Shown piece by piece: positions 4,201 through 64,000 of a stretch of DNA of 64,000 bases. This DNA is from Phoronis australis. Its lineage: Eukaryota > Animalia > Phoronida. The DNA lies in the NCBI GenBank assembly GCA_002633005.1, contig NMRA01000001.1, positions 3,021,695 through 3,085,694 on the forward strand, written 5' to 3'. The position numbers and the translations under genes are program-made. The notes below the pieces were generated by a model, which did no database searches, was not told the origin of the DNA, and saw only the letters and a program-made list of their open reading frames with translations. Within the stretch, counting starts at the first letter, position 1; each line of letters begins with the position of its first letter.

Positions 4201-4301
4201 ATGCGGTAATGTTTAAACCCCAGATTGCTTCGATCAAGACTAAACTTTGACAGCTATACAGCGACGAAATACAGCTTTATTTATGCTGACTGGCAACTTA
4301 C

Positions 4302-4815
4302 CTTCATCCTCCAAATCCGTGTCATGTCCTGTATCAAACTTGTCACTAACATCCACAGAAGGCTTGATTTCCCTTTTGTCATCTTCTGCTAGTTCGCTGT
4401 CTATGTCGTTGAGGAAATTCTCTGCCCATTCTCTAACTGGCGTGCGTACTCGCAACGTATTAACCTCGCTAACGTTATCCACGTGGTCAAGCTCCGTAAT
4501 CAGAGTGCTAGATTTTTTGCTAAACCCCTTTTTATTGATCATTTTCTTCACACTGCTGTTAAACAAGGACACCCTGGTTTTGCTTTCGTACATCTCATCG
4601 TCTGCGTTGTTTACGTCAGCGTCTCCAGAGTCGAATGCTTTGAACCCATTGGTCGAACTTTTGCTACGGGGTGTACGGATCATCTTACTATGCGCAAGTG
4701 TTCCACTGGCGTCGACCGAATCGTCCAGTGTGTCGTCTGCGCACTTGGAGTGTCCAGACTTCTTTTTAAAATGTTGACTAGATTTTGAAACGACGAACGA
4801 CTGACTCCTTTCCAT
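4302..4815 (-). CDS. LRRC74A: LRRC74A-like large N-terminal exon (probable start ATG at 4815; acceptor at 4821/4822)
   Basis: Long open frame MERSQSF...DTDLEDE ending G|gtaagt; phase 1 fits the next exon (G+AC=Asp). A DTDLE-type acidic motif precedes the conserved region in LRRC74 proteins. The start codon is uncertain. Confidence 0.72.
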
Positions 4816-6922
4816 GTGTGTCTGAAAAGACATCAATATTCTTGTTAACAAATTTTAATACTGACGTAAGCCTTTTAAGCAATATTTGATTTCAACTGAT
4901 TTCATTGTCAAAATTTTCAAATAATTTCATATAATTTTATTATTGCAAAATAAATCGAACATGTCGCGGCAGTCCATTAGTGCATCAAAGAGGGAAGTGA
5001 TTCCATTATTAATTAGAAAACTATGTACTGTATTCTGTTCAAGGCAGTTAATTTCCCAATATAGTGTGTGGAGACCGTGTTCCAGAATCAAATAATGGAA
5101 TTGATTGCTTTCAACAAATATATTCTGGTGTGCATTTTAATGCACGCTGTTAGATATATTGGACAACAGAATTGATTCCGTTAATCAAATGTAAAACCGC
5201 TCGTAGTGACTCAGTAAAACTGGAAATGAAATCTATCTGAAATAATCGAAATTTTTATTTGCGTTTTCTTTAATAGGATCGATTGCATAGGATTTTGTGT
5301 ATTTCAGTAATAAATTAGGAAATCTCAAATGAAGGTCTTGTTTGATTATTCAGGAAATTTGTTAACAATGAAACCCGTCTGTTGTAAAATGCTGATAAAA
5401 AAGCCAGAGAAGATATGGCTTTCTTAGGCGATCGTGTGGTTTATACCTAATCACTTTTTCAGCTCACTACGACTAGCGGATTGTAATCGAGAAATTACCT
5501 GGGTGTCACTAAACTTCTCAAGAGTTTTTATCCGTACTAAACTGTTTAAAGTGGTCACCAAGACCAAAAATTGTCAAACCTATTTAAAATGAAACGTGTA
5601 GGCTCACACAGCGCTGCGTCATGTCCCGTCGTTTCCCACTGTAATCAACTCTGCAGTGCAACCCAAGTTTGCGTTGAAGTTACTTCCTGAAGACATTTTC
5701 ATTAAATGTCTCTTCGAAGCTTAACTGTTTAACAAACGATGAACGCGAGGTCTACATTAAGAATTCTAAAGTAGAAGGGTCCTTACCTATGCTGCGTGGT
5801 TACGTAGGGCCACACAGACCACCGCCTCAGTCTTGATTTGCTCTTTTCCGAGATTGAATTAGTCCCTTGTAGGGGGACGAGTCAAAAGTGGAAGACTCTA
5901 GCCCCCTAACCTAAATGAGCTGTTCATATCTCCGTGCAGACACTCAGAACGGCTTCAATTGCGATCCCAAAAATGGTATTATCCGCGACGTAAACTCTAG
6001 TTGTAAGTTACGGAACTAACGATAGAATCCCACAGTGAGTGGTCCAAGACAAGTTATCAAAAATAGACGGTGTGATTCAATATGTTCAGTTGTGTAACGC
6101 ACTGTAAACGGGGACAATAGAATTGCGGTGATTAATTGTTAGGGTAAAATGACCAAAATAGAAGAGTCACTGAGATGTTATTAATAACATTGTACGACTT
6201 TTACACTGGAGTAGGATTTAGATGAAAGGAGCAAAGGGCAAGGAGAAGGGGGAGAGACGAATAAACAGAACTGTAATTTATGTAGCTAATGCACTGAAAG
6301 CGCTATGGTTACAATGTGCTTGTTTGTGACCCGTTAGGGAATTTACGTGAACGGCACTATAGGACCAACAATGGCGTTGAGACGGCAAAAACAATGCATT
6401 GTTGTTTATATCCATGACCCAGTGTTCGAACTTTTCATGTACTTCTAACGTTTTCTTTTTTAAACAAAATTTATAATAAATTAATGGTTTTAGGAGTAAA
6501 GGTGAAAGTCAGAGTACTTCGGTTAATAATATAGTTTTTAAAACGATGACTTTCATGTGATGGAGTTCTGATTTCACAGCCTTAGTTTCGGTTTTGTTGA
6601 CATTGATGATATTTTTTAAAACGAGGCCAGGTTGTAATAACAACGTAAAAAAAACTATTCTTCGATCCAGCTGAATTTAAATTGAAAAATGTTTTAAAAA
6701 TATTTTCAAAGTGACGGGTATGTTTTAGATAATTCGATTGAGGCGACCGATTTGAAAGATTTTTAAATCTGATTGAAAGTTGCTTTTGCACGGCTTTGTG
6801 AATTTCTAGCATAAAAGACTTCTTAAAACAATTATACTAATTTTACCGTAAGTTTTTAAAATCTTTTTATTGCGAAAATAGTGCAAAACATACCACTCGA
6901 CTTGTGCAAGTGTTTTATTTAA

Positions 6923-44158: not shown

Positions 44159-44349
44159 TCAGTTTATCACAGATTCCGTAACAGCTGAGTTGCAGTTCTT
44201 TGACTGATTCATTGCCGGAGTGAGATGAGACAAGACAAACATGGCCACGTCATTGTTAGACCAATAGGATGTGTGCGAGGTGATCGCTGCCACATAGCTG
44301 TTCTCCATGCTGCCCTCTCTGAGACTATAGTCAAGTCTGTACTCCAAAT
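44159..44349 (-). CDS. DDHD1: DDHD1-like phospholipase A1, last coding exon
   Basis: tttgcag| phase 1; DLEYRLDYSLREGSMENSYVAAITSHTSYWSNNDVAMF...TGA, the end of the DDHD domain. Confidence 0.95.
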
Positions 44350-45742
44350 CTGCAAATGCACGTGCACACAGGGTTAAACCATTTGTCATGGGAAAAATAC
44401 AACAGTTGGAGATGTTGAGATGATAGGAAATGACGATGTGGTCGACTCGAGTTTGTGAAGACAAAAAGGACTGTCAGTTATTGCACAAGATGAGCAGCAG
44501 GATCACACAAACATGTTGTTGAGTAAAACATTGAGCAACTCTGAACTGTCACGTCTTCCCAAGCTCATAAATTTTGCCTGACATCTGGTGGTGACTTAGG
44601 AACAACTTGAGACTAGAACTGGTTAAGTTAAAAAATAGTTTTTTTGACTGAAGGCAGTTTTAACTGAAAAATATAACACAGCAGATTGGAATATAACAAG
44701 AAAGATTGTATTGCACATAAATTTTTTGTGATTGACATGTCAAATGTTACAAAATATTACCAGTATTAGGGTCTCACGCCTATGGAGAACATTTGACAAG
44801 AATGATCTCCATAATAGTATTAAGTGAAATGTTTGTTGTCAATTCCAACTTTCAAAGTGCAAAATGTGATGAAGTAACTTAATGTGTTGAAATGACTGCA
44901 GGTACGAGTACACAACGAAAGAATCATGACACCATATCAAAACACTAAGAGAGTCTAAGTTTATTTAATTATACAAAGAGAAAGGTGGCTGACACATCAA
45001 GAACAGAGAAAGAAAAATAGAGAAGCCATGAACTGCCAGTAAAACCCAAACATAACTAATAGTGAACAAAATACATCAAAGTAGCTGAATGTACATAAAA
45101 AGTGAAACAGATTAGTTTAACAGGCTACTGACAACAACTAGACTTACGAATTCCAGCTGAAAAAGACAAAATTGGAATAGGAGATCATCAAACAAGAACT
45201 ATCAACGTTTAACATCAGAATCATAAGTCAGAAGGTTCCACAAAACTTACATTTATTTTTTGGAATTCTTAAAATTCCTAAACACAGTATTTCAAAATCA
45301 CATAGCACTCATAGATACCAGTGAGAACTGGCCAGCTCACAAAATTTATTTACGTCTTAATGTTTATCTAATACAAAAGAGAACCAATTAAAAAGAAAAA
45401 ATACTGTCAAATAAACTACCCCTTGATTTGAACCACAAAAATACGCCTATAAAACTGTTCTCAACTTGTTCCCTGTTCATGTTCGAAATAATTTCTGGGA
45501 TAAGAAAGAGCTGACATTTCGTAGTTGCTTGAGGCAGGGCTCACAGCAATTTGACTTGACACAGCCAGTCATTCTATACACCAGGTATGGAGTCAACCAA
45601 TTGTCACCTCCTTCCAACGCCACATACCACTCCTAACCTGAACAGAGAACGAGCTGAAACCACTTTTAATTGTAAGTGCTCTAAATCAAAGTTAAATTTT
45701 ATAGGGCAGGTGTATGGCGGCTTTAATTGATAAAACACACAC

Positions 45743-45916
45743 CTGTTTGCTCGATCTCCTCGCGTAGCTTCATTTCCTGTTTCTCATTCTCTCGTCTCTC
45801 CATTTCTTCCTCAGCCTGTTTCATGGCATGCTGCACACGCTTTATGGCCTTCAGTTCAGCACTTAACTCCTCAGTCTTATCTTTCTTACGACCACCTAAT
45901 TTGGACCACAGTGAAC
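45743..45916 (-). CDS. DDHD1: DDHD1-like exon
   Basis: 174 nt, phase 1-1; GSLWSKLGGRKKDKTEELSAELKAIKRVQHAMKQAEEEMERRENEKQEMKLREEIEQT (charged, coiled-coil-like). Confidence 0.85.
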
Positions 45917-45949
45917 CTGTCGGTGGAAAACCAACCGATATCCGCAACT

Positions 45950-47260
45950 ACTCAAAAGGTACAGAGGCAAACATAAAAAACATGTTCCACTGAAGGTGGC
46001 ACTGAAGGTAGAGCAATAGTCGTATCCGACCATCTGTTGTCAAGTTAATAGGGATACACCTGCCAAATTTCACAAAAATCCTGTAAGGGGTTTAGGAAAT
46101 ACAGTTACAGAATGATGACACCACTAGGTGGAACCACAGCGGTTGGATCCGTCCATAAATCAATGTCAGTCATGCTCGTGTCAGTGCAAACATATCTGAA
46201 AATTTTCGTGATGATCCTCTGGGCAGTTTGGCAGATTCGGAGGTGGACGACAAAAAACAAGTTGAAAATAATAAAAAATAGCCACTGGGGGACACAGAAT
46301 ATTGTCGTCTCTATAATGGAAACTTAGTCATGAAAACAATAAAGGAATACTAAAGATACAGAGACAAAAAGTAAAATTGGCACTAAGGGGCACACCAGAA
46401 GTGCGATCCATTGAAAGTGCTGGTCACCCTTTGTCACATTAATAGGAAAATACAAAGATCCTCTGGGCAGTAGATGCAAAAAGCTACATTGCCATTAGCA
46501 GTCGCACCCACCCAAAAATCAACATCAGCTGTTGTTTTCTCATCAGGAACTCACCTGCTCATCTTCATAATAATCACTTGAGCAGTTTGGCAAAGAACGA
46601 GGTGAGTGGTAAAAAACGGGCTGAATTATAATAAAAATTAGCACTAAGTGGCACAAAAGTAGAAAGGCATAGTTATCTTCTTAATAAAAATCAATTTATC
46701 AAAAATTTTACCATCCGTCAGCTGCTCCACCTGCCAAATTTCACAAAGCCCCTATAAAATTTTGAGGTGACATGGCTGCGGACGCAAAACAAACAAAATC
46801 GCCACTAGGGACACCACAGTAGTCTGACTCGTCCGAACATCAACATCAGCTGTGATCTTCTAAACAAGCACACATCCGCAAATGTTCATAATGATTTTTT
46901 GAGTGGTTGTGCAGATGGAGAGGCGAACATCAGAAAACAGACTGCAAACTAACAAAAAGGCCACTAGGGGCGTAAAGTATGTTGAATCTGTCCAGATTTG
47001 GAACGTCATTAGCATTTACTTAACAGAAACCAATTTGGCAAATTTCAGGCAAATCCATAAAGGAACTCTGAAGATACAGAGGTACGTGTGAAAAACTAAA
47101 ATTGCCACAAGGGGCACAGTAGTCGGATCGGTGCGAAATTTGTCTCCATCTGTCGCCAGTTTCATAGGAACACATATACCAAATTTCATTTAGATCTTGC
47201 AAGGAATTTGGGTGATAAAGTAGCAGATGGCAGACACCAAGACAAAAATGCCATCAATAT
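45950..47260. repeat. Degenerate complex repeat array (gccactagggg / ctgccaaatttca / gatcctctgggcagtttg motifs)
   Basis: Motifs recur every 100-260 bp; the same family occurs at 54590-55280. Confidence 0.75.
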
Positions 47261-47470
47261 GCACCCACATAATATTATTCATATGTGGGTGCATAGCAAC
47301 AAATTGAGCTCTACAGATCATAAATCTACGTCTGCTGGCTAGCCTACTACAGCTGACCACAATTCTCCTTACACTATCCATTAAAAGTCATTTCAAATAA
47401 ACAGTGCAACAAAATTAATTATAATCATATTTACATAGACACTCAGCTATCAAAGCTCCTGCTAACATAC

Positions 47471-47726
47471 CCACAATGCCACCACCCTGAGAGCTGCTGG
47501 TCGGTGAGTCGGTGACATCCTGATATACAGAATGGTCTTCATCCACAGACTTCTGAGGCGGCTCATTCTTCGACTCGTGCTTGTCAGATCCCGTTTTCAG
47601 GGCAGAGTATGCTTCACTCTTCATTGCCGAGTACGGCGTGGCAGATGAGACGAGATCGTAGCGGTGAATCCTCAACGGAATGATAGTCGTGTAGTGTTTG
47701 AGCACCAGTGGTTCAAGGCGATAAGC
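47471..47726 (-). CDS. DDHD1: DDHD1-like exon
   Basis: 256 nt, phase 0-1; AYRLEPLVLKHYTTIIPLRIHRY... Confidence 0.93.
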
Positions 47727-47942: not shown

Positions 47943-48090
47943 CAGACGTGCGCAGGCCTCATGGTTGGGCCCATTGCACAAAACACCTGAGCAAAGGCAC
48001 CTCAGCTTGGTTGTAACTGTATATTAATAAAGCATAAAAATGGTGCCAACAGTACAACCAGGGCACACTTGAGTGACCTGCGCACGTCTG
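47943..48090. mobile_element. Short MITE
   Basis: Perfect 14-bp TIR cagacgtgcgcagg/cctgcgcacgtctg; no clear TSD. Confidence 0.7.
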
Positions 48091-49095
48091 CTACAACATG
48101 AACAAAACCGCCTGAAATTATTCTGTTTTAGTAATCACAGGAATATTACCAGAAAACAATGCTCTGGCTTTATTAGATTTTAATGACTTGTTCTGCAAAT
48201 TTTGTGGATTTTGAGCACGGACTTTAGCAAACAGTCAGATACTCTGGTTTCATTTTGTAGTTTTGCAGTTTTGTTTGGACTAGCTTCCCTGGAACACCAA
48301 AACAAATAACAAAATTCAAACAGTACACCCAGGCTAACGTTTGGGAAACTAGACAGGCTGCTTTTCTTGGCATGGAACTTTACTATCAAAAATTTCTGGT
48401 AATAAACAACACCAAAATTTTCAAGTTAAAATTTTTCTTGTCCAAGTTCAAATACATAATTTTTGCACACTGGCCATAAAAGGAACATGATCAGAACAGT
48501 TCACTAGACCTGGTCCCAGGATGTAATCCCCCAACTCAGACTCGACTCAGATTTGGACTTAGACTTGAAACACAACCGATCACGCTACAAGGTGTGAATG
48601 CAAATTTTCAAGTTCACTTGTGCCATGCCATAGAACGATACCAGATTAAACAGCAGCACGCGGTATTTACCCACAATGCTACAACATCCCTCAAGCAGTT
48701 CTCTGCCCTCGCTCTCGTGGCAGTGGAGATTCTCATGATATTTGTCAGTACCTTGTTAATTTTCATTTTTTTCTCTTGACTGCATTTACGTAATTAACTG
48801 TTTGACCTTCAATGCCATCAAAGTTTTAATACTGAGCTGTGGCCTGCAACTTTGAAGGCAGAAAGTTGTCTGAACTTGAGAAGTATCCGCGGATGCGATA
48901 TTTTCTGACATGATTCCTAGCATGAATGGCCCTGACATTTTTTTTTCAGGCCAATGTAACAATGCATTTTCCTACCTCCAGAACAAAAGTGACTTCAATC
49001 CAGGACCGTCCTATTGGTCAATTTTCAAGTCGAGGTTTGAGTGCAGAAAAAAGACCCTGGGCCAAGATCACTTACAGCTCATTGGTGACACTCAC

Positions 49096-49245
49096 CACAG
49101 GATCAGCAGGATGATAAATGTTGAACATACGTTTGCACAGTGCCCTAGGCATAATGTGGTCAGCTTGACCAGTGGCCTGTGGTCGTACTCCTCTCAGGGC
49201 CAGAAACACAGCCAGGGGCGAACCCAGGCAAAAGAAGTTCTCAAG
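49096..49245 (-). CDS. DDHD1: DDHD1-like exon (DDHD domain start)
   Basis: 150 nt, phase 0-0; LENFFCLGSPLAVFLALRG...MFNIYHPADPV. Confidence 0.96.
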
Positions 49246-52200
49246 CTGCAAAATGGACAATCACGCCTAGTGAGAGACAGACAATCAATCAGAACAAAAT
49301 TAACGAAGTCAATATTTTGAATCATCTTTGAATAACATTAAAAACTATGTTACATCAAAATTAAAAAACATTTTTTGTGTACTGAAATTAAACAAAAAAT
49401 ACATCTCAATTGGTAAGTGACCATAAAACTTTCAGCTGAAAGATTCTAATACTGAGATTTTTAAACACAAAATGTCATTGCCAAAACCAAAAGTGCAAAA
49501 ATTACTGCTGCATCAGAATGGTTTCACTTCCTTAAACAACATGTTAAGAGAGCAGAAATACCCATTAACCTCTGGCAAACTACTAGGAGATTAAGATATT
49601 CCATGTTAAAACTAACCCCGGTTAAAACTATCCCATGGTTAAAACTACTATGTGAAATACTATTTGGAAATGAACAATTAGTTGGTGTAAGAAATGAAAA
49701 TTTGCTTCCAATCAATGTACGAGTTAGTTAACAAGCAATTTTATTATATGATGCAAATGGTAAAAGTAATGTGGAAAAATGATGAAAGAGTTTCAGGGTA
49801 CCATTCAATATAAGGAGCAGACAGGGGTTCAAACTAATCAACTCCACCCTCAGTAAATTTAGTGCTTTCCCGTGATATCTTGTGGAACCTTTCCCCCAAT
49901 ACACAAAATCACAAACCCAGATCAGTCCCTGTATCATGTTGTTTTTGTGGCATATCAGATTTGTCTCCCTAGTCAACTTAACACGGCCCTTGCTCATCTG
50001 AGAACAAAGGTGCATGTGCCTTCAGGGAGGGAAATTTTTTGGTTGAGGGGAAAATTCCTCACCTATTGTTACCACCAATTCCACTCCGGCCCCCGGCCGC
50101 CATCCCTCATCGGCAAAGTAGCTAAAAGTGACAGTTCACATAAACCTTGAGATGAATGTTTCCGTCACTGGAGTGATATTTTTGAACATGGTGAGGTGAA
50201 TTTTATGTCATTTTTAAACATTTTTCATAGGGGAATGGCCAATATTCGGCCCCAAAAATCGAGTCAAGGAAGGCCCTGTCTCAAGGACCAAAGATTTACC
50301 ATTACTTAAACTGTTACTTTCTAGTTTCTGTGAGTTGTTCTTTAGAGCTTAATCACAATTCTCTATCCACCAATACAATGTGAGAGTCAATTAGACCAAC
50401 AACATAGTAATTTGAGTGAAATCTTGCCAGTAGCCAGCACCACACCCTTTCAACATGGTTAACCAAGGGTCGCCGTGGAAAAAGAATTTTTGTGCTATTC
50501 TCATTCACTTATTTTGCAGGCCCACATCTATCAGAGTTACGTTCAAAGTGATCGGTTGTTGTCACACTTGAAGGACTTACGGGCAGTTTCACAAACTAAA
50601 GGAGACTCAATTTCAAGACACAAATGGCAAGAAAATTTAAGTGATAAAAATAGTAACTACCCATAATTCAGCACTACCCATAATTCAGCACTATGAGTAG
50701 TCATACACCGACTGCCATTATGGCTGTATGAGACTGGTAAGGTCAGGTGCTTACATGCCAAACACTTGCAAGATCTTGCATTACACCAGCATGAACTTGT
50801 CAAATGTGCAAATACCAAAGGTGCGTTCCATAGAGTAGTTGACTTCTTGCAAGATCAAAATCACTCGAGATAAATGCGAGTGTTTCACAAGTGCGTCCGA
50901 GACCTCATTAGAGCAGACTAGCAAAATGGCCGCCACTGACGTGACTGGTCAGCAAGGCAGGGATGTTGAATTAAGGCAGAAGTTCACAATTTCCATTCCA
51001 CAAACTATCAAAGATTTCTTGCCGAAGGTGTCTTATAAGTGTCTCACCTCACATTACATAACACAGCTGCATTTTAAAAAAAATGTGCCTTAGTCATAAC
51101 CCTGAAAGGCCTAAGGTCCACTCTGATCCAAAGTATCAATTGCATTCGTGCAATATGCAACAGAGAAAATATCACTTTCCAAAAATCCCACGAGTGCTTA
51201 TGACGATCCACAACAGAGGCGGAGAAAGTACCACAACCACGCTTGAAAAGCCCGCCCCCATCACAGTTGTTCTAGCTTGAAGATACTAAGTCATATTAAC
51301 TGTAGAATACGCAAATGAAGCAGACTCACTACGATAATCCGGAGATGAAAGAGAGGCTCATAGTGGAAACAACCCCAACATGACTTAGCAGTTTGAACAG
51401 GCAGTGAGTGCTACACAGAGTCAGACTACACAGCTAGTGCAAGTTCACGTCACGTTACCCTGAAACGCCAAGCGCCGGGCTTTCGCGTCTCGATGTAACA
51501 GTATGGTGTACACAAGACGGACTCGGATAGCTCCTCTCCCTCCTTAGAAATACACTCAATAAAGTTAGGGTCTTATTTAATTGGAATGCATGGATGTAAA
51601 TATGGGCATACTGTCAAGTAGACAACACAGTTTTCGTAACCCCATAGCAGACTAGAGGTTAAACAACCCAGGGGTTATCAATCAATAGAAAAGTTGACTC
51701 GATAAAGCTGTATTTAAACTGACTTCCGTGGAAAAAAACAACTTTTGACTTCAATTTTTAATCTACATAGGAAATTGATCTAGACCTATTCCTTGCTTAA
51801 ATTACATTATGATTTCTGTGCTTGGAAGAAATTAAGAGTTCGTTTTGCTTGAGATCAGACTCAACGCTTGTCACAGTGGGTCATTATATGTGCCAAGCAT
51901 GGCTTCGAGAAATAAGAGCCAACTGTCATGCATTCGCAAACCCAAAAGCCATTTCTCATCCGAATGAAGTACAAGACGATTAAAGTTTTATACCTGAAAG
52001 TAGCCTAAATCAAAAGTTCGTTTCATTCATGAAATTCGGGTCTATAACACCACTAATAAGAAACAATGTACGAAGAGGATAAGAAAAGGAATGGCTTATA
52101 TCAGAATAGTAAATGTTCTCTTGAAGCAATAAAAACAGGAGATACTATAAAAATAAACAGCAGCTTTGATTATAATCATTTCCATGCAGCAGTGCCACGT

Positions 52201-53330
52201 ACTGGTTTGGGTAATTCTCTAATAAAGTTGCACAAAATCTCTCACAATATTGCAGACACGCACAGTCCGAACGATTTGAAGACTTTTATGCGGATGCGCA
52301 AACTGTTGAAACCATAATAGAGATGTACCAAGTTAATAGAGAAAGTACTACACACGGTGAGCATGGCAAAAATTAAGAAATGCAAATACGTCGGTCAGAA
52401 ATTTGTCTTGACATAGTGTAACATTCTTTCAAGTTGAAAATTGTGTGATTTTCCCAAATTACTCAGTGACCGTTAAGGGCATTTCAGTTATTTCATGGAC
52501 ATTACTAAGTACTACAAACTGTGTTTTTGGAAAGGTTTGGAAAGCATTTTGAGATTTTGTTTTCTGTCCTTAATGGGTGGGAGCTTCATGTAATTTACGG
52601 AAAGGAAGACTTGGATTCAGTGAAAATGTGAATGGCCATCTCATTACTATGTTACAGTAAAAAGTAAGACAATATTTGGAGTCACTAAAACTACTGCATA
52701 CATACACAATTGTATAGTCCATAATTGCTAGAATAACGGAGATCGGTAAAGATTTAACACATCAAATGTCTGAGACATTAATGTTACAGTTCTCAGCGTA
52801 ACATGATTGTAAAAAATACTATTTTACAACACTGACAAATATACAAGAAACAAATATGAAACATCTCAATGTACAATAAGTTATTCAAACAAAAGCAAAA
52901 CCGTGTTTAACAAACAAGGTCTTAAAATAATCCAAGAGGTACCGCAAACACCAAAGGCTGGAACAAAAGGGGGTTATAAAAATGTATAAAGTAAAAACAT
53001 AGCAGTCAAATGACGGCCAGGCCACGTGATATTAATACTGGATGACCTCAGTAAACAATAGACAAACATTGAATGACAAAATCATTCATTAAAATTGATA
53101 TCATCATCATCATTATCAAATGTGCCAACGTTTATGGCAAAGCATCTCTTCAAAGATAAATAATTTTCTTTGATTTTGGAGCAACCAAAGAAATTTTTAG
53201 ATAGAAATCTCAGTACCAGCTTTAACACAGAAATTTAAACCTCTGACCACATACAAAGCAGTTAGAGTGATGCCAGAGTCGAAATATTTTCTAATTAAAG
53301 TAAGTGCTTTATAAGAAAAATTCAGCATAC

Positions 53331-53406
53331 CTTAAATTTTAGTGTTGGCGTCTTTATGTGTTGCCTTTCGGTCATGGCCAGCAAGGTCATTTCAAGGTCA
53401 TGCACT
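53331..53406 (-). CDS. DDHD1: DDHD1-like exon
   Basis: tttccag|...|gtatgc, 76 nt, phase 2-0; VHDLEMTLLAMTERQHIKTPTLKFK. Confidence 0.88.
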
Positions 53407-53876
53407 CTGGAAATTGAAAAGGCTTTCCATTTAGATTTATACATAATTTTTTAATTTGAGTTCGATTGTTTGCTGGTCTTTGACCAGATGAAGTCTGATA
53501 CACTTTGAAATTGGCTGAATAAAGCTATTCAAACCATGCATTGAATCAATTAAACCATTGCATAACACCTCTTTAATAACTAATGAGACAGGCATGCTCA
53601 TACCGATTACTAATGTGCAGAATGTTAATTTCTGAGAGCACATAGAATTCCACTTAGTGATAACTATAGACTGAGAGCGCATGACATCATAAATTGTGAT
53701 GTACTTGAAAACATTGCAAAACCTAAAAAAAATCTATAAAAAAACAACACCGATTCTATACCTACACAGGCTGGATAATGTTTCAATCAGTAAATTCTTG
53801 AAACAAAACCGACATGTTCAATAAAACTGACGTTACATCAAGGCGTGTAATGTTTGGGCAGGATGTTTGAACCTAC

Positions 53877-53944
53877 TCTTTTCGTTTCCGCTCCAGACTG
53901 GCCACTAGATTCGAAGCTCCTTCCACCGCATGGCTGACCTCCTC
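53877..53944 (-). CDS. DDHD1: DDHD1-like exon
   Basis: gtttcag|...|gtaggt, 68 nt, phase 0-2; EEVSHAVEGASNLVASLERKRK; supplies the phase bridge needed between its neighbours. Confidence 0.8.
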
Positions 53945-54589
53945 CTGAAACATGTACACATCCAACATCAGTCCAAGAAGGTTTAGTGTTCACTTTTAAG
54001 CGTTAGTGAACACCCGTGTCACCATCACGCAATGAAATTGTGAATTCAAAGGCAGTGCTTAATATGATAAATTAATATTAAGTTTAAAACATTATAAATT
54101 TAAAAAATTTGAATTAAACTGGCTTTCTCCATCAACAATGGAGAGCGCCACACATCACAACTGCATCGGCTGAAATATCAACCATGAGGTATTTGAGTAC
54201 TAGGGCACAAACAATCTCTTGAATGAATTATCTTAGTTTTTTTCTTTATAATAGTTTGGTAGTAGCCCTTCTGTAACACAAACTTTGTTGAACACACAAC
54301 TGAACTTTTTGTTTGCAAGCTTGATACTGAGTCACTTGTAGTGTCTAAACAATCTTCTTTCTTCAGGTATGTAGCTATGCAGCACAACACCGAGAGACAT
54401 AACAAACAAGCAAATTAAAACGTTTCTTATATGTTCATTCCACTTATTGCCTGATGATGAGACATGCAGTCTCAAAATACAATTAGTGTTTTAATACAGT
54501 AAGTTGTGGGATGCCATTGTAACATCTATAGGTCTGGATAACACTGTAAAAGTTCACAAACACCCAGCACAGAAATCATAAGCTATAGC

Positions 54590-55280
54590 CATAACAGCAA
54601 AAATACAAAATCACCACAAAATCAGCATTAGACCCTTCCGAAAATCAACATCAGTCATGGTCTCCTCATCAGGAACACAACTGCTGCAATTCATAATGAT
54701 CCTTTGAGAAGTTTGGTGGATAAAAAGGCAGACGTGAAGCTGCCTGTTTTCCAAATTTCATCAATAAACTCTAAAGTTACAGAGGTAAATGCCAAACTAA
54801 AGTTGCCACAAGGGGGCACAACTTTAGCCAGATTGGTGTGAAACCTCCTCCTCTCCATAGGAACATATTTGCCAAATTTCTTCCAAAGACTTAGGGAGAT
54901 ACAGTCGTAGATGCAAACAACAAAATTGACACTAGGGGTCGCCAGAGTAGACAAACCCCGTCCGAAAATCAGCATCAACCAGTCTTCCCATCAGGTGCAT
55001 ATCTGTCAATAAATGATCCTTTGAGCAGTTTGGAAGATAAAAAGGCGGATATCAAAAACATGCTCAAAATTTTTTTAAATTGCCACCAGTTGGAACAGAA
55101 TGCGTCAAATCCATCAGGAACTCCAAAGATACAGAGGTAAACGTGAAAAATTAAATTGCCGCTAGGGAAAGCGAAGTTGTAGAATCAGTCCGAAACTCGC
55201 CGTCATTTGTTGTCAGCTCCATAGGAACCCGTCTGCCAAATTTCATTTAGATCTTGTAAGGAGTTTAGAATATACAGCCA
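54590..55280. repeat. Second array of the gccactagggg repeat family
   Basis: Shares tccgaaaatcaacatcag, atgatcctttgagcagtttgg and ctgccaaatttcatttagatcttg with 45950-47260. Confidence 0.75.
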
Positions 55281-55427
55281 CAGACATTCGACACGCAGAT
55301 AGAGATCACAGCAATACACCACCACATATTAATACCGTATATAGACGCATAAAAAGGTAACGCAGCTATAATAAAGCTTGCTAGCAACAAGCTGCTGTGT
55401 AAACTGACATTTGCTGAAATGACTTAC

Positions 55428-55504
55428 TATCGCCGTGGCAACATATTGGTCGTAGAGTTCTATAGGATTCCAGCCAGTGATAATGTCATATGTGATAACA
55501 CAAC
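55428..55504 (-). CDS. DDHD1: DDHD1-like exon
   Basis: 77 nt, phase 1-0; GCVITYDIITGWNPIELYDQYVATAI, completing the HSL-G lipase motif. Confidence 0.94.
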
Positions 55505-56532
55505 CTGAAAGGAAATGGAAACAATTAATTTGTTTAAGTATGCTGCTTAAAACGTTTTCATGCTAGTCAGTTTCAAATTACACCGAGTACTTTGATTCAT
55601 TGTTAGCATTAGAGTCTTTCTCAATTTTCTTCTTAGTCTAAATAAGTCACTTAAAAGCATTTATCAAAAGCAGCTGTAACCTAGGCTTCAATAAATTTGA
55701 TCACAATTTAGGCGTTTTTTTTTTCAGTGAAATGACCGAGATCTTGATGATTATGTTTTTGATAGTTTTTTCCAGACACCCGTTTGTGTCTAATAGAATA
55801 TAAAGATGACATTTTCAAGTTCCCTTCAAAATTTGTGTGTTTTCCATACACATAAATTTTCATGGAAATTGCCGAATTTCCTAACAACGCAAATTTCTTC
55901 GTACAACACTTACAAACCCAGTTTCTTTAATAAATCGTGTCTTTCTAAAGCCTTTTAGCTCAAGAACTGCTGTCAAAAAGAGAAGTCATCAACATTCCTT
56001 GACTTTTGACAGCCCACCTCTCCAGTTAAAAGGCCATGAAAGAAATTCCCAGACACTTTGCAGCAGATACAGACATAGCAGAATTGCTGGGTAGTTGCCA
56101 ACAGGGAAATATATCATCATACTATAAATGGTCACCCTATGGATATTACTGTAATGAGTAACTAGATAGAAGAAAAACTTAATAGGAAACAAAATTTGCA
56201 AATTTTGGGCTAAAAATATGTGTTTGACTGTGCAAAATTCAGCAGCTCCATGAAAAATCATGTTTTTTGAAAAAATGCAATCATAAAATTACAAACATTG
56301 CTTTCGTGCACATGAAACGATTCTGTGATCAACAAGGATCTTAAAAACATGCGTGAGGTTTTATGGGTGTACTATTAATACCTTTAAAGGTAATTTAAGA
56401 AATTTGATCTAAGGTAATGAAGGTACCCTATGTACTTTAGAAATTTCTTGGCAGTCATTCTTTTAACCAGTCAAAAATAACTACTAGTCACAATAGATTT
56501 AACACAGTTACTGTAAAACATTTAACATTTAG

Positions 56533-56630
56533 CACTGTTAAAACACTGTTAAAACGCTGTTAAAACGCTGTTAAAACGCTGTTAAAACGCTGTTAAAACG
56601 CTGTTAAAACGCTGTTAAAACACTGTTAAC
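56533..56630. repeat. 11-bp minisatellite c(a/g)ctgttaaaa, about 9 copies
   Basis: Read directly from the sequence. Confidence 0.95.
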
Positions 56631-56777
56631 AGTGTCAGATTGCTGTTGGGAACTAAAACGATATCAAAATCTTAATCTCTTCTTAAATTGTGAAGTATTT
56701 AACAGTGTCCAAAAGATCAATTTAAAAAGAGACCAAGATTTTGAAATCGGTTTAGTTCCCAACAGCAATCCAACACT
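56631..56777. mobile_element. Long foldback (arms about 60 bp), probable MITE
   Basis: agtgtcagattgctgttgggaactaaaacgatatcaaaatctt pairs with aagattttgaaatcggtttagttcccaacagcaatccaacact. Confidence 0.85.
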
Positions 56778-56865
56778 AAAGTCATAAAAGTTATCAACAA
56801 AATGAGACAACAACATCGGCAGGTACATCAGTACGGCAAAACATGTCAAACAAAAATGTTAATAC

Positions 56866-56977
56866 CTAGAGAGTGAGCCACAATGGAGACTTTGCCACCG
56901 TTGGCTTCAAAATAAGGATGCCTAACACAAAACATGCCGTACAATCGATTCAGCTCTGTTTGCAGACCGTGAGTGAT
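56866..56977 (-). CDS. DDHD1: DDHD1-like catalytic-serine exon, copy B (AHSLG), mutually exclusive candidate
   Basis: ttttctctag|...|gtatta, 112 nt, phase 0-1; ITHGLQTELNRLYGMFCVRHPYFEANGGKVSIVAHSL(G). Confidence 0.92.
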
Positions 56978-57254
56978 CTAGAGAAAATCAAAAGAAATCA
57001 TAACACACAGCAACACAACTGTAGGACTGTGCACACAAAGGGGGGGATGATTTTGGACCTGTGAGCTCGTTGTCGGTAACAATTTTAAGCTAATCACATT
57101 TTTTGTCACAAGAATTCTCACATTTTGCACCTTTTTATTTGAGCCAACAAATACAGTCGCAAAAATCTGACAACTACACCTTTTCATAAAAGTCAGTCAG
57201 AATTAAAAACATATTTAAAAAGTCATTGAAAATTAGTGACACTAAAAAAAACAT

Positions 57255-57345
57255 TCAGAATTATTGACACATTTAAGCCAATCAGAATTAATGATACATT
57301 TAAGCCAATCAGAATTAGTGATACATTTAAGCCAATCAGAATTAG
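57255..57345. repeat. 27-bp tandem repeat, about 3.3 copies, each with agccaatcag
   Basis: Unit tcagaatta(t/a/g)tga(c/t)acatttaagccaa. Confidence 0.9.
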
Positions 57346-58022
57346 ACACAGAAGTCAATCAGGATTCGTGGCATGTCTAAACGAACACTAATGATGTTAA
57401 GCATGACTACCATAAAACCTTCATTGTGTTTATGGACTGACGGAAGCAAACATCATGTCAACAATGCCAGTCAGCTATTGAATAACGCACTTTGTAAAGG
57501 AAGCTGGCGTGTACTTGAAAATAATCATGAAACGACAACTAGAGGCATCCACAGGGCTACTGAATTGTCCAGTCCGACACTGGACAAGTGGTCAAACTCA
57601 ACACATGAAAATACAAACAATGGAATTAATGATATGCACAACTTTTAAAATTCAAAAATAATATTTGTTTCCATAAAAATTCTTCAGCTTAGGACATGAT
57701 ATGGATAAAAGATGAAATTCTGTTAGACACATTTCCCAGCAAAATGGGTTTAGTGTTACCTAGTTGTCATAGTTTGTATTATAAAGCTGTCGCAAAATAA
57801 TATTAGGAAAATTTTCGTAGCAACAAAGTAAGGTTTTGAAAAATTGAAATGTGCAAATTTTGGCACACATTTTAGTCCAACATTGAAGAATTTTCATCAT
57901 TTAGTAAAACGGATCCTTTTGGACAAATCATGAGAGATTCATAGCACGTCAGCACACTCATGTCTAAAATTCTATAGAAAGCTGAACAGACGAAGGAGTA
58001 GTATTAATTTGCACCTCTTTAC

Positions 58023-58134
58023 CTAGAGAGTGTCCAATAACTGACACCTTACCCCCACCTGCCTCAAACATGGGGTGTCTGAGAACAAAGCGGGAGTAAA
58101 GTTTGTTCAGCTGTGACTGTAATCCATGTGTTAT
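58023..58134 (-). CDS. DDHD1: DDHD1-like catalytic-serine exon, copy A (GHSLG), mutually exclusive candidate
   Basis: ctgttttag|...|gtaaag, 112 nt, phase 0-1; ITHGLQSQLNKLYSRFVLRHPMFEAGGGKVSVIGHSL(G). Confidence 0.9.
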
Positions 58135-58904
58135 CTAAAACAGCAGCAAGGAAGAGAGCAATGATCACTGTAGATCAGTTTAAAATTGAGGACTTTCACC
58201 GACAATCACCCATTTTTAAGTAATATTTGACAAGAGAAAGGTTAACACAGAAAGTAAATTGTGAATCGGGTAATTCGATGAAAATGAGCTGGGTAATTTT
58301 GCTTTCACAGAATGAAGTTTCATCAGTTTTTTAATAGGAGCACCATTTGTTAACTTTTCTGAAAACTACAGTGGTTTTGCTAAGTTTTACCTACAAATGG
58401 TGCGATATTTAATGAACACATTTTCTTAAGATCTAGGGAGTGCTTTACAAACACATCCCTCAATAGTGACAGTGAAACGTTATTATTTGCAATATGGCAC
58501 AGGATATTTCAGGAAGATTATTAATGAATTTTTTGAAAGTAGGAAAATATTTGCAATGAATACTTTTTACATTTGACAGAGACAAGATCGGAAAATTGAA
58601 GTTTAGAAATTAAAGAAGTGAGTCTTTGCATCATATTAAAATCAAAAGCACTTGAGAATGTTTATCCTTTAAAATATGTGATTTTTTAAAATCATATGAA
58701 CAATAACATCATTTCATCAAAATTTCAGAGTGACACTTCTAACTACCTGTTGGGTGTCGAAGTCTCTTCAAAAATATCTGATTTGAAGAAACTGTAGAAT
58801 GTGTCCCCAAGCATTGCGTAAAAAAATATGACAAATCGCACTCAAGATCATAAATCATTGTCTACGATGTAGAATACTGTTGTGTCACCACAACGTGAGC
58901 TAAC

Positions 58905-59011
58905 CTCAGATCTGTAGAGAGGGCTGGTGTAGTACAATATGTCCATAGCACTACTGTTGAGCAAGTGTCTCAGTCCCTTCACCTTCTGTGGTGTGATCGA
59001 GTCAACAATAT
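58905..59011 (-). CDS. DDHD1: DDHD1-like exon
   Basis: 107 nt, phase 1-0; DIVDSITPQKVKGLRHLLNSSAMDILYYTSPLYRSE. Confidence 0.95.
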
Positions 59012-59480
59012 CTATAAAAGAATGGTGATGCTCTGTCACGTACACAATAGTTCAATATCTATCCAATAAAAGTTGAGTAGTTCCGTCGGAAAATGGCAAA
59101 ACAACAAAAGCCAAATTTGTTGAAAACTGTCCAAGACGTCTTATTACAGAGGTCAATAAAATTAGTGCAAACAATTAACATCTATGGCCTCCATCAGCAT
59201 ATGTTTAATTTCGTGATTATTCAAAACATCCTATCTTTGATGTCTACACCACCATGATAAAGATGAGGGTAGCAGAAATTTTAGCCTTTCACTGTTTTGT
59301 GATAATTAACCTGGACGTATAAGATTAATTAAAAGTGAAAGTCAAAATAATCGGTATATATCAACCATGATCATCCCCAGTCTCACAATAACTTTGTAAG
59401 GGCCAACATCATTAAGTCCTCATCATCGGCAGTATCACTGTCATTATCTTTTGTGATTGTAACAATGAGTAATGATTAAC

Positions 59481-59593
59481 CTCCATCTAATTTCAGCGAT
59501 GACCTCCACTCCACAGGTAAGAATTCTGCTCTCTCTTCACTGGCATCATCTGAGAAGAGCTTCGACTTGATGCGGGTCACAGTGTTTCGAAGG
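59481..59593 (-). CDS. DDHD1: DDHD1-like exon
   Basis: 113 nt, phase 2-1; LRNTVTRIKSKLFSDDASEERAEFLPVEWRSSLKLDG. Confidence 0.95.
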
Positions 59594-59820
59594 CTGCAAA
59601 TAGACGTAGACGGTGGCATCTGTCATCGTAGATGATTGACACTGTTTAAATGGACAATTATGGCACATCCCATTATCAAACAATGGAACGTAAAACTCAG
59701 GTTGTTATCTAGGGGTCTAGCAGACATGCTGGCAAAATGCAGGGAAAAGGGTCTTAGAGTATTTTGTGGAATAATGTAATGCTACACAATACTAAAGAAC
59801 TCCTATCAGCTTTAACATAC

Positions 59821-59959
59821 TCTGAACAACAGCGGACGATGCGTCCCGTGTCCATCTTCTGTCCAATCCCATGTACCACAAAAACCAGGTGCGAGATGTC
59901 AGATGGCTTGTCATCCATTCTCGACTCGTACGCATAACCTCGCTCTAGTCGGGTGCCAG
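59821..59959 (-). CDS. DDHD1: DDHD1-like exon
   Basis: 139 nt, phase 1-2; GTRLERGYAYESRMDDKPSDISHLVFVVHGIGQKMDTGRIVRCCS. Confidence 0.95.
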
Positions 59960-60122
59960 CTGTAACCAGAAAAAACAGTCCTTTTAGTTCCGCTAAATTG
60001 AAATGACTATGTTGCTAAAATCGGTCAAAAAGTTGAAAACGAAAAAAGCGATGAAGACGTGCATTAAGAATAAATGACGTTTCAGTATATTCCATGTATC
60101 ATCAGAAGGATTATAGTTCCAA

Positions 60123-60250
60123 GACAGTCAATAGACAATACAGTCAGTAACGGACAATCAACAAATAATACAATCTTTAACGGGCAGTCCATTGAATAAA
60201 CAATCAGTAACGAACAGTCCACAAATACAATTAGTAATGGACAGTCAACA
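60123..60250. repeat. Degenerate minisatellite, unit about 30 bp
   Basis: Recurrent aatacaatcagtaacggacagtc-like unit. Confidence 0.7.
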
Positions 60251-60600
60251 GATACTACATCCTCCACATCAATGTGCAAGTGGCCTAACAGAACAATCTC
60301 CAAAATTCAAGACGTAATACGGTGGACTCATAGGAATTTTATTTTTACAATGTTCTATCAAAAACAAGTAGACAAAAGCAAATGCCTTTTGATTTATATA
60401 TCCTACACTGTAGCTACCGTTACACAATACTTTGGAAATTATGGGCATTCACAACGTAATTCCATGAAAAAGAAAACAATAATTTATGGCAAATTTGGCT
60501 TAACATTTTTGTCTGAACTTGGTAAGATTTTACCTGTCTACTAAGGTGATCTGCCTCATTACTTCAGTTTACATGACCTATTTACACTACACCTACTTAC

Positions 60601-60729
60601 ATTTCTGCATACCAAACGTCTGCCGCACGCTGCGGTACACACGTGACGATGTAGACTCACTGAACACATAAACTTCCATTGGACTGTTCCAGTCAACGTG
60701 AAACTCCTTGAACTTCATATTATGCACAA
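60601..60729 (-). CDS. DDHD1: DDHD1-like exon (most 5' exon found in the window)
   Basis: 129 nt, phase 1-1; VHNMKFKEFHVDWNSPMEVYVFSESTSSRVYRSVRQTFGMQK. Upstream exons are presumably beyond 64000. Confidence 0.92.
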
Positions 60730-63437
60730 CTGAAATATAGAAAAATATTTTTGTAAAGTCCCATGCCATGCCAATTAGATAAAGTTTAACACCTCACACC
60801 TCAAACTGAAATAAATCCGGTTAGTGGTAGTGAATCTTGCCTTAGAAACAATCAACAAACTCCAATCTATCCATAGCGGTATTTTGTGTGATAACGAATG
60901 GCAGCTCAACAACTAAAATACAAGCCGCTTCCATGCACAAAGTAAAACAATGGTTTTCATAGATGGCGCTGCATCACTAGAATTGATACTTCAACAGCTT
61001 ACATTCCCATAGTTAAAGAATAACATTTTCTAGTAGCTACTACTATTCACTACTTGCACAAATTCGCCATTATGCTTGAAAACGAGGTGTTGTGTCCAAT
61101 CTATAAATGGTTCTGCATGTTTGGAATGCGTGCTTTCACGTTTGTGTAGTTAAAATTGATGCTAAAACGAGGTTTTGTGTCCTAAACAACAATGCACAAC
61201 AATCATTTTTTGCAGCGCCACCAGAGTGCAAGTAATGAATTGCTATGACTCTTATAACAACAGAACTAAAAATAAAAGCGTTGCCAACGGACTTGCATGC
61301 TGTTGGGGGTTCAAAATCAAGGCTTTATCGACTGAGGCATATTGAATGCTGTGTTTAGAGTCACATGCACGCCAACTGAGCATGACACACGCACATTGAA
61401 GAGCCAGTAAATCTGTTTACTGAGAAGTTAACTAGCGATGCTAGCTTTGGTCTGAAAGAAGTTGAATATTTGCACTGAGAGACAATCCTCAACGTGTTTA
61501 CGTTGGTGTGAATGGTACTTTTTGAAAGCTACTTTCACACTTACAAGCGGATAACTTTCCACAAAAGGATTCGTCTAACCAAGACATTTCTGACAATCTG
61601 CTATGATATCGCCCTCTCAATAAAGTGGAAATATGATATAATTGGTCTACCAACTGATCAAAAATGGTGGTTATTTAATGAATTGACTTAGGTTGAGGAG
61701 AAATGTACTCCTTGTTTCACTTGCACTGACGAGAACAAATAACAAGTTTACTGTCTGGTAACCATTAGAACGTTCATTAATATTGAACGAACAGCTGGAC
61801 TAGAATAATTGAACTCAGCACAAACATATACATATCACACTATGGTAAACTCTCACAAATTTGAAAACAATATTATAGAAAAACAAATTTCTATTTTATA
61901 ATTTCCATTCTTTATAAAAAATTAGCAACACTAACAAATGATTTGTCGCTTTAAAGTTCTCCAACATATCTTCCATAAAATAATGATTTGGAAATTGTGA
62001 GCATGATCACAAGAATTTCAATTAAGCCTTTGCAAAATCTAAACGGATCAATTTCGGTAAATGTTTGCGTCATAAATAAGTGACATTTTCCCGCGAGTTT
62101 CTTCAACTATATACACTTTCACTGAGGGAATCCAGCATACTCCAATGTCCAAACACTAACGAGAATACTATACATCTAGCCTCTACAGCAATGTAGTGCA
62201 GTAGAAATTGTATTGACTCATCCAACACTAATTGCAACATGAAGATTGTAATTATTTATTGGATTGCGATTAAGTCTCGTAAGTAATTACACTGTAGGTA
62301 GACCATTCTAAAATTGTGACAACTCTTAAATGTCTGCCTGACAGGTGTGCTGTTACTTTTCTTCTTTGCTTGCACCATGAGCAAGAGGCAAATGAATTTG
62401 ACTAATTGACTGAAGTCAGTCAAGAGCTAGGATTCAAACATTTGTGTGGAAGCGAAATTAACACAATTAAGACCACTGTTGACTGCACTCGTCAATATGA
62501 AATATGCAAAATAATGAAGAAAACAACATGAAACGTTGACCTTTGCTCGTAAGATATTTTTAACGGCTAACTTAAATGACAAACTCATGGTTTCCATGAG
62601 TGGTGAAAACTCGGGAAGTTTTTCAGGGGCGAAAACGCCAAAATTTAAACTGGATTGTGGCAATTTTTGCTCGCCGGGCTATTATCAGTAGTTTGTTTCC
62701 TCAGCACCTGAATCACCACTATAATTGGTTAATTCGACGATAAGCAAAAGCCTCTGCCTTAAGTGCATGCCCGTCCTATGAAAAAAGCGGTCCAACTACA
62801 TGAGTGCTTGGCAAAATGACAGCACTTGTGAAATAACTGAAACCGCCAGGAAAACGCCACTTGTATTTACTGGCATTTTCAACATCAGAAAATGATATCC
62901 CTTCAACCAGCTAATACAGTTTACCAGTTATTGTCATGAAATTTTAAAAAATGAACACTCCCCATGAAACTAATGCATAATGACAAGATCAGATGTCATG
63001 ATTTATTGAAATATTTCTGGATGCTGGCATTTTATTCTCACCTGCCTGTCATCATCTACCTTCACTTTATCACATGAAAACTGACCTAATTCATATTTAA
63101 TATGTTTGCATTATCAGAACTTGGCATTTGGATAAATATCAGTCCTTTCCAGTCTTACTCTCAGACAAAACAAAAACGATGAATATAGACTACACGCAAC
63201 ACCATGTGACTAATCTAATAACGAGCACCCAGCACTGGCACAGTAACTTGACCCATGTTAAGTTTACATCTTCTTGCTCTGGGATGAGTTCCCAAAATGC
63301 AAAATCTTGCCAGTAAAGCTAGTGTGGTCAAGTGCTTTGTTTGTTGCAATGCCTGGAAATATCTCGCTAAGTCTCGCGTGGTCTTGGCATTTATTCTTTG
63401 TTCTTGATTCTACTGAACAATGCCCTGCTCTACTTAA

Positions 63438-63800
63438 AAGGATATTAAACCCTGTTTTGGTCTATGAACAGATACTGGAAACACCTTTGCCATCCAGTTC
63501 TCTTAATAAACCGAATAAAGCTTTGCAAACCTCGACAACCCTCAAAAGTTTGGAGCATATTTTGTAAACTCCTAAAAGTGTGCTAAACAATTGCAAGCGT
63601 GACCTAAGCTCTGGACGAATTACACATTAAACTGTAGAGAAGACAACCTATCAAGAACCATAATGTTGAATTTGTGACTAAGAGTCTATAAACTTTTACT
63701 CGAATTCTTCTTTCATCACTCATGTGGTACGCCAGTGATGCAATAACAGGTGGCAGAATAAGGATTGGTTGAAATCACCAAAACAGGGTTTAGTATCCTT
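63438..63800 (+). mobile_element. TTAA-flanked MITE, copy 3 (Kolobok-like)
   Basis: ttaa|aaggatattaaaccctgttttggt ... accaaaacagggtttagtatcctt|ttaa: 24-bp TIR with one mismatch and TTAA on both sides. Confidence 0.85.
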
Positions 63801-64000
63801 TTAATATCATCAGCTTAGTATAATGAAGGTTACCAATATGTTGCCAAGTTGGAACCCGCTTAATGGAATATATCCTGCTCATTATAGCAGTTCACGTTGA
63901 ACCAGAGCGCGTGGCACTTAGCAGGCTCCACTGTACTGCGAGAGCCCCTTTCACAGCACCATCTGTGGAGGACGATGAACACCAAGAATCGGCAGGAAAT

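What the first reader, a model, noticed from the sequence alone, without database searches (positions are those of the whole stretch)
56866..58134. Tandemly duplicated, apparently mutually exclusive catalytic-serine exons in DDHD1 (GHSLG versus AHSLG)
Seen in sequence: two paralogous 112-nt exons with intact AG/GT sites, no stops and identical phase (0 in, 1 out) lie between the ...PLYRSE exon and the GCVITYD exon. They share 25 of 37 residues, yet 18 of those 25 conserved residues use different codons, and the flanking introns show no similarity. That pattern indicates an old duplication kept under protein-level selection, not an assembly artefact or a decaying copy. Including both exons frameshifts to TAG inside copy B; skipping both frameshifts to TAG in the next exon; so exactly one must be used. 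Established: this exon encodes the strand and nucleophile elbow (G/A/S-H-S-L-G) of DDHD-family intracellular PLA1. As I recall it, human DDHD1 has one such exon, reading ELNRLY...FC...GGKVSIVSHSLG, which is closer to copy B. Inference: the gene switches its active-site segment by mutually exclusive splicing, possibly changing lipid preference, since GHSLG is the motif I recall for DDHD2/SEC23IP. I know of no description of this for DDHD1 but cannot search the literature.
Basis: partly seen in the sequence, partly recalled or inferred. Interest (0 to 1): 0.9.

Follow-up and report, generated by a model that had tools for sequence, protein, structure and literature searches.

The report
Spare catalytic exon in invertebrate DDHD1
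An invertebrate animal's DDHD1 phospholipase gene carries two old tandem copies of the exon with its catalytic serine, but only the ancestral-like copy appears in the RNA reads available, so the second is likely a rarely used alternative active-site segment rather than a shown splicing switch.

Summary
In detail: two 112-nt paralogous exons (A 58023-58134, B 56866-56977, minus strand), same phase, 25/37 residues shared, synonymous sites saturated, flanks unrelated; A+B or skipping gives an early stop. The gene is a lophotrochozoan-like DDHD1. B is the ancestral-like copy (34/37 identical to two nemertean DDHD1s); AHSLG is the usual protostome motif. A is derived (10 of 12 differences on its branch). 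A has been under protein-level selection (conservative changes, 8/8 invariant residues kept, acceptor ranks 3 of 362 AG sites). However, three RNA runs of one study show only B (15 upstream, 20 downstream junction reads) and no read on A. No A-type copy was found in 217 full-length homologues or 40 animal loci. So mutually exclusive use is inferred, not shown; a recently silenced relic stays possible. Best reading (0.6): a lineage-restricted, condition-restricted alternative exon that changes the outer face of the helix before the nucleophile strand and restores GxSxG. This is a known class (coq-2, ACSL6, ACOX1). The scan noted similar catalytic-exon pairs in other enzymes on other DNA, none in DDHD1; I found no paper on it in DDHD1.

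The parts
58023..58134 (-). Copy A of the catalytic-serine exon (112 nt, derived, GHSL|G; Ser codon 58029-58027). No RNA read covers it.
58135..58160 (-). Pyrimidine tract and AG acceptor of copy A; ranks 3 of 362 AG sites in 53400-60700; three YGCY and seven UCUU-like motifs in the 120 nt upstream
56866..56977 (-). Copy B of the catalytic-serine exon (112 nt, ancestral-like, AHSL|G; Ser codon 56872-56870). The form seen in all junction reads.
56978..58022 (-). 1045-nt intron between A and B; GT-AG; holds a 27-nt minisatellite; no long AG-free zone before B
58905..59011 (-). Upstream constitutive exon (ends PLYRSE, phase 0)
   Evidence: read joints
55428..55504 (-). Downstream constitutive exon (completes the Gly after the serine; CVITYD)
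   Evidence: read joints
59481..59593 (-). Earlier DDHD1 exon
   Evidence: read joints
59821..59959 (-). Earlier DDHD1 exon (VFVVHGIG strand)
   Evidence: read joints and loose ends; tblastn
60602..60730 (-). Earlier DDHD1 exon, approximate edges; the 5' end of the gene was not traced and likely lies beyond the window
   Evidence: tblastn; loose ends
49096..49245 (-). DDHD-domain exon (first part of PF02862, 67.4 bits against cut-off 28.3)
47469..47726 (-). DDHD-domain exon (middle part); upper edge approximate
44201..44350 (-). Last DDHD-domain exon (SHTSYW, the family's conserved His; 55.4 bits); edges approximate

Best explanation
The DDHD1 gene here holds two old tandem copies of its catalytic-serine exon, normally splices copy B, and likely swaps in copy A in some tissue, stage or condition not sampled, which would give a minor isoform with a retuned active-site segment. 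Shown: the anatomy, the frame logic, B use, A's derived and conservative divergence, intact strong splice sites on A. Inferred: A is repressed by default despite a strong acceptor, exclusivity is enforced by regulated choice plus nonsense-mediated decay of A+B and skipped messages, and the A protein stays an active serine lipase. In A, six of seven helix changes fall on the face away from the buried core and Ala before His-Ser becomes Gly, so the predicted effect is on membrane or partner docking and fine substrate preference, not on catalytic chemistry.
For: NG86 between copies: pS 0.88 (saturated) against pN 0.24. Neutral decay of A with equal time on both branches reproduced the pattern in 0 of 4000 runs at each of 5 depths. 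Conditioned on 10 changes, 41 of 3000 neutral simulations matched A's score on a profile of 69 orthologue segments and 11 of 3000 matched its mean BLOSUM. A keeps 8 of 8 invariant columns, exon-like GC 0.46 against 0.32 in introns, an acceptor ranking 3 of 362 AG sites and a donor with 6 of 9 consensus matches against 5 for B. In the model of homologue P0007 the exon spans helix 379-403, strand 413-419 and Ser420, pLDDT 86-96. Helix changes cluster on one face, P 0.024 by exact enumeration. Several of A's states that are rare or absent in DDHD1 (Q8, K11, basic 15, aliphatic 17, G34) recur in a plant family member P0164 and in P0172, so the fold tolerates them.
Against: No read on A in 3 of 3 RNA runs, against 15 upstream and 20 downstream junction reads for B; 95% upper bound on A's share about 14-18% in these samples. 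No A-type segment in 217 full-length homologues, in 68 proteins of 11 isoform clusters, in 51 hits of an A-peptide search, or in 40 animal loci. A evolves faster than B (10 against 1, p 0.012) and has lost R11, M15, C17 and Y22, which relaxed selection would also give. Two of the four neutral tests are weak (all invariant columns kept in 153 of 3000; columns of 90% or more in 342 of 3000). Models with late release from selection fit (3.7% and 15% of runs). A's net charge of +3 lies within the orthologue range (8 of 69 at +3 or more).
Confidence: 0.6

Rival explanations
1. A is a former alternative exon that was selected for a long time and has recently fallen silent; it is now an intact-looking relic.
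For: Zero reads on A in 3 of 3 runs; faster change on A's branch; late-release simulations reproduce the pattern in 3.7% and 15% of runs; no A-type copy in any relative examined.
Against: Frame, AG/GT, pyrimidine tract and all 8 invariant residues are intact; the changes are conservative as a set; the RNA evidence is about 20 junction reads from one study of unknown tissue.
Confidence: 0.28
2. A is a poison exon: it is included together with B to shift the frame and lower DDHD1 levels through nonsense-mediated decay.
For: A+B gives a stop inside B; such messages would be rare at steady state, which fits zero reads; A has strong splice sites.
Against: A poison exon needs no amino-acid conservation, yet A shows saturated synonymous change with kept invariant residues and conservative substitutions.
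Confidence: 0.07
3. A is an assembly artefact, a second allele placed in tandem, or a recent segmental copy.
For: No read covers A; no DNA run was listed to confirm the stretch.
Against: A and B differ at 44 of 112 nt while RNA reads of other individuals differ from the window at 3 listed sites over the covered exons; flanks are unrelated; intronic reads fit both sides of A (57393-58036 bins in X1, 58198-58519 in X2).
Confidence: 0.02

Closest known systems
Homologous mutually exclusive exons from tandem exon duplication in enzymes: C. elegans and lophotrochozoan coq-2 exons 6a/6e (PMC7434440, passages seen)
   Same: Two same-length internal exons, length not a multiple of three (134 nt there, 112 nt here), one ancestral-like and one derived, building part of the enzyme core in invertebrates.
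   Different: In coq-2 both forms are abundant, conserved across phyla and proven to switch substrate; here only B is seen in reads, A was found in no relative and no function is tested.
ACSL6/ACSL1 gate-domain exon pair (PMC1543647, abstract seen) and ACOX1/KHK pairs (PMC9741552, passages and one supplement file seen)
   Same: Lipid or metabolic enzymes in which the swapped region touches the active site while ligand-binding residues stay conserved in both copies, as His-Ser-Leu does here.
   Different: Those are ancient, expressed vertebrate pairs; the swapped segment there is a gate or cofactor region, here it carries the nucleophile itself.
DDHD1 / PA-PLA1 / iPLA1-alpha (named homologues P0007, P0002, P0196; PMC9031518 and PMC3039968, passages seen)
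   Same: DDHD domain, x-H-S-L-G elbow, conserved exon; copy B is 34/37 identical to nemertean DDHD1.
   Different: All 217 full-length homologues held here show one version of the segment and none has Gly before HSLG (A 117, S 98, no motif 2).
DDHD2/KIAA0725p, p125/SEC23IP and plant SGR2-type proteins (GxSxG per PMC3039968 Table 1; SGR2 label for P0164 is recalled)
   Same: Copy A has GHSLG and shares several helix residues with P0164 and P0172.
   Different: A keeps the longer DDHD1-type loop and B's exact length and edges, so it is a copy of B that converged, not a captured DDHD2 exon; no named full-length DDHD2 was examined.

Membership tests
DDHD1 / PA-PLA1 | C-terminal DDHD domain (PF02862) | tested here: met
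   Two exons pass the curated cut-off (67.4 and 55.4 bits against 28.3), a third matches weakly
DDHD1 / PA-PLA1 | Lipase-type x-H-S-L-G elbow after a beta strand | tested here: met
   Both copies; strand 413-419 then Ser420 in the homologue model
DDHD1 / PA-PLA1 | Closest named relatives are DDHD1, not DDHD2/SEC23IP | tested here: met
   All gene-named hits are DDHD1 or DDHD1-like; best summed tblastn scores Tubulanus 718, Lingula 716, Lineus 707. No tree with named DDHD2 was built.
DDHD1 / PA-PLA1 | Phospholipase A1 activity on PA or PI | not testable with these tools
   Needs an enzyme assay
Homologous mutually exclusive exons | Adjacent paralogous exons of equal length and phase with intact splice sites | tested here: met
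Homologous mutually exclusive exons | Only one copy gives a productive message | tested here: met
   A+B and skip both hit early stops
Homologous mutually exclusive exons | Each copy is spliced alone in some transcripts | tested here: inconclusive
   B yes (15 and 20 junction reads); A 0 reads in 3 runs of one study, 18-19% of each run read, tissue unknown
Homologous mutually exclusive exons | Protein-level selection on both copies | tested here: met
   pS 0.88 against pN 0.24; neutral simulations 41 and 11 of 3000; a late release of A is not excluded
Homologous mutually exclusive exons | Pair conserved in related species | tested here: inconclusive
   Absent in all relatives examined, but none is close: best identity in a conserved exon was 80%
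Steric or U12-type exclusivity | Very short intervening intron, distant branch point, or minor-spliceosome sites | tested here: not met
   1045-nt intron, AG-free zones of about 30-40 nt, GT-AG donors unlike the U12 consensus (consensus recalled)
Docking-site / selector RNA pairing | One intronic element pairing with either of two selectors | tested here: inconclusive
   44 inverted pairs found, 25 shown; none beyond chance-like AT-rich matches except one 60-nt hairpin downstream of B; no congener to test conservation

The most novel reading that the evidence does not exclude
Copy A is a regulated switch that moves a DDHD1 enzyme toward the DDHD2/SGR2-type active-site segment (GxSxG, changed helix face), so that one gene yields an anionic-phospholipid PLA1 and, in a specific tissue or stage, an isoform with broader or neutral-lipid activity. 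It would be a natural 10-residue swap that tests what separates DDHD1 from DDHD2 specificity.
Probability: 0.12. Interest if true: 0.7.

Novelty: new member of a known kind. Interest (0 to 1): 0.38.

Why it matters
If A is used, it is a natural variant of the nucleophile segment of an enzyme family with no solved catalytic structure (only the Nir1/Nir2 relatives were found) whose human members cause spastic paraplegia (PMC9031518). Ten defined substitutions could then be assayed for their effect on lipid preference and membrane docking. As a splicing device it is ordinary: duplicated active-site exons are a described class, and this one looks restricted to one lineage.

Tried and rejected
No whole genome is held, so other individuals' or paralogous loci could not be searched. 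No RNA holder was listed by index; three raw-read runs and one contig set came by species label. The contig set X4 laid 0 records, which says nothing. The second lay read the same subset at 85% likeness and again showed nothing on A: bin 58008-58674 was 0 in X1 and X3, and the 0.44 in X2 equals the intronic reads already seen at 58198-58519. A-peptide search among longer proteins: 6 candidates, none significant, weak evidence. PDB by sequence with B: one chance antibody hit. Steric, U12 and RNA-pairing mechanisms: not supported. A charge-switch argument was dropped because +3 is within the orthologue range. The idea that AHSLG is itself a variant was rejected. The first neutral test (P 0.001) counted two positions not attributable to A; the corrected test is. 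Literature: 8 searches; 'DDHD1' + 'exon duplication' 0 papers; 'DDHD1' + 'mutually exclusive' 7 papers by listing, one opened (PMC9237535, unrelated); a Schistosoma paper lists DDHD1 as alternatively spliced without the event type in the passages seen (PMC4583307). Subscription journals are not covered, the one supplement file held for PMC9741552 was short (15,271 characters) and may lack the full gene list, and bioRxiv supplements were not seen.

Full report
Observation. They share 25 of 37 residues, 18 of the 25 with different codons, and 68 of 112 nt. Joining both gives a stop inside B and skipping both gives a stop in the next exon. The 300-nt flanks are no more alike than random intron.

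The gene. Two downstream exons pass the Pfam DDHD cut-off. A search with one of them gave 87 hits among 102 candidates, and those that carry a gene name are DDHD1 or DDHD1-like. The best summed tblastn scores on the window come from two nemerteans and a brachiopod (718, 707, 716), ahead of molluscs (664 or less) and Capitella (596); no deuterostome is in the top 25. The host is therefore likely a lophotrochozoan without an annotated close relative: the best identity in that exon was 80%.

The copies are unequal. B is 34 of 37 identical to Lineus and Tubulanus DDHD1, A 25 of 37. Against four outgroups, 10 of the 12 differences lie on A's branch, 1 on B's, 1 is unclear (p 0.012). Before HSLG, 117 of 217 full-length homologues have Ala, 98 Ser, 0 Gly, and 2 lack the motif (the plant protein P0164 was left out of this count, and the set is redundant). 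So AHSLG is the ordinary protostome motif and only A departs.

Selection on A. Synonymous sites are saturated (pS 0.88) while pN is 0.24. If A had decayed neutrally since the duplication with equal time on both branches, the observed pattern arose in 0 of 4000 runs at each of five depths; with most of the synonymous change placed before a late release it arose in 0.05% to 15% of runs over four settings. Given 10 changes, neutral simulations reached A's profile score in 41 of 3000 and its mean BLOSUM in 11 of 3000, but kept all invariant columns in 153 and as many well-conserved columns in 342 of 3000. A keeps exon-like GC and an acceptor that ranks 3 of 362 AG sites by a simple pyrimidine score, above B's. 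A was a working exon for most of its life; whether it still is cannot be read from one genome.

Expression. Three paired RNA runs of one study, 18-19% of each read, gave 118 reads on 55300-60100. Joints: 58905>56977 in 6, 6 and 3 reads; 56866>55504 in 7, 6 and 4, plus 3 loose ends matching B's end. Depth in the bin 58037-58197, which covers most of A, was 0 in all three, and no joint to A was listed. A second lay at 85% likeness read the same subset and agreed. With 15 to 20 independent junctions the 95% upper bound on A's share is 14-18%. Tissue is unknown, so this shows that B is the main form there, not that A is dead.

Conservation. None of 68 proteins in 11 isoform clusters (nemerteans, molluscs, lancelets, a hemichordate, octopods) differs by more than 3 residues within its cluster in this segment (listings are partial for the two largest clusters). 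An HMMER search with A over 1.84 billion representatives gave 51 hits, none an A-type copy of an animal DDHD1 exon; those scoring higher to A were a plant protein, a springtail fragment and three unnamed fragments. Of 40 animal loci from metagenome contigs, 0 show a second copy; by eye 22 span the intron where A would lie and 5 span both flanking introns, and many are near-duplicates. The duplication looks restricted to this lineage.

What A would change. In an AlphaFold2 model of homologue P0007 (58 sequences, pTM 0.75) the exon covers most of helix 379-403, a loop, strand 413-419 and Ser420, at pLDDT 86-96; the fold matches Nir1/Nir2 DDHD structures (E 3e-13) and weakly small alpha/beta-hydrolases. 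Six of A's seven helix changes fall on the face opposite the buried L5, L9, L12, F16 stripe (P 0.024, helical wheel). This fits the general finding that variable residues of mutually exclusive exons are exposed and near functional sites (bioRxiv 10.1101/292813, passages). Q8, K11, a basic residue at 15, an aliphatic at 17 and G34 recur in the plant protein P0164, and R15, aliphatic 17 and G34 in P0172. A nonetheless keeps the longer DDHD1 loop. I infer an active enzyme with altered docking or preference; nothing here tests it.

How exclusivity would work. The intron between the copies is 1045 nt with short AG-free zones and ordinary GT-AG sites, and no convincing pairing was found. What remains is regulated choice plus decay of frameshifted messages. 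A's tract is richer in UCUU-like and YGCY motifs than B's (7 and 3 against 4 and 1); repression by PTB- or MBNL-type proteins is a guess from recalled motifs.

Comparison and verdict. The closest known cases are coq-2 6a/6e, ACSL6 gate exons and ACOX1/KHK. Eight paper searches found no description for DDHD1, within the limits of the library. The scan's own notes list eight other enzymes with duplicated catalytic exons and none with DDHD1 (unchecked), and no look-alike of this locus. The feature is real and apparently undescribed, but it is a candidate member of a known class whose key property, use of both copies, is not shown. Best explanation 0.6, relic 0.28, interest 0.38.

Noticed in passing
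window 56631-56777: 60-nt arms, 88% complementary, 27 nt apart, about 90 nt downstream of B's donor; looks like a small inverted-repeat element, next to an 11-nt tandem array at 56513-56644.
   Followed up: no
window 57243-57380: 27-nt minisatellite in the A-B intron; its unit holds branch-point-like words, 270-400 nt upstream of B, with AGs in between, so not a distant branch point by anatomy.
   Followed up: partly
window 47069-47114, 48000-48041, 54270-55250, 61100-61150, 63470-63804: Intronic repeat families that draw hundreds of partial RNA reads from elsewhere in the genome.
   Followed up: no
window 45726-45947 (-): A charged, helix-like coding stretch joined to the 47469 exon by 36 reads, inside the DDHD domain; not compared with homologues.
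   Followed up: no
window 48670-53338: Sense-strand intronic depth is higher in run X3 (2-9) than in X1, suggesting more unspliced or retained intron there; repeats may contribute.
   Followed up: no
window 4243-4854 (-): 204-codon open frame, no Pfam family above cut-off; probably an exon of another gene.
   Followed up: partly
L008, L010-L012, L014, L019, L022, L024-L035, L038, L039: In several other animals one or both introns around this exon are absent or shifted, so the exon could not be duplicated as the same unit there.
   Followed up: partly
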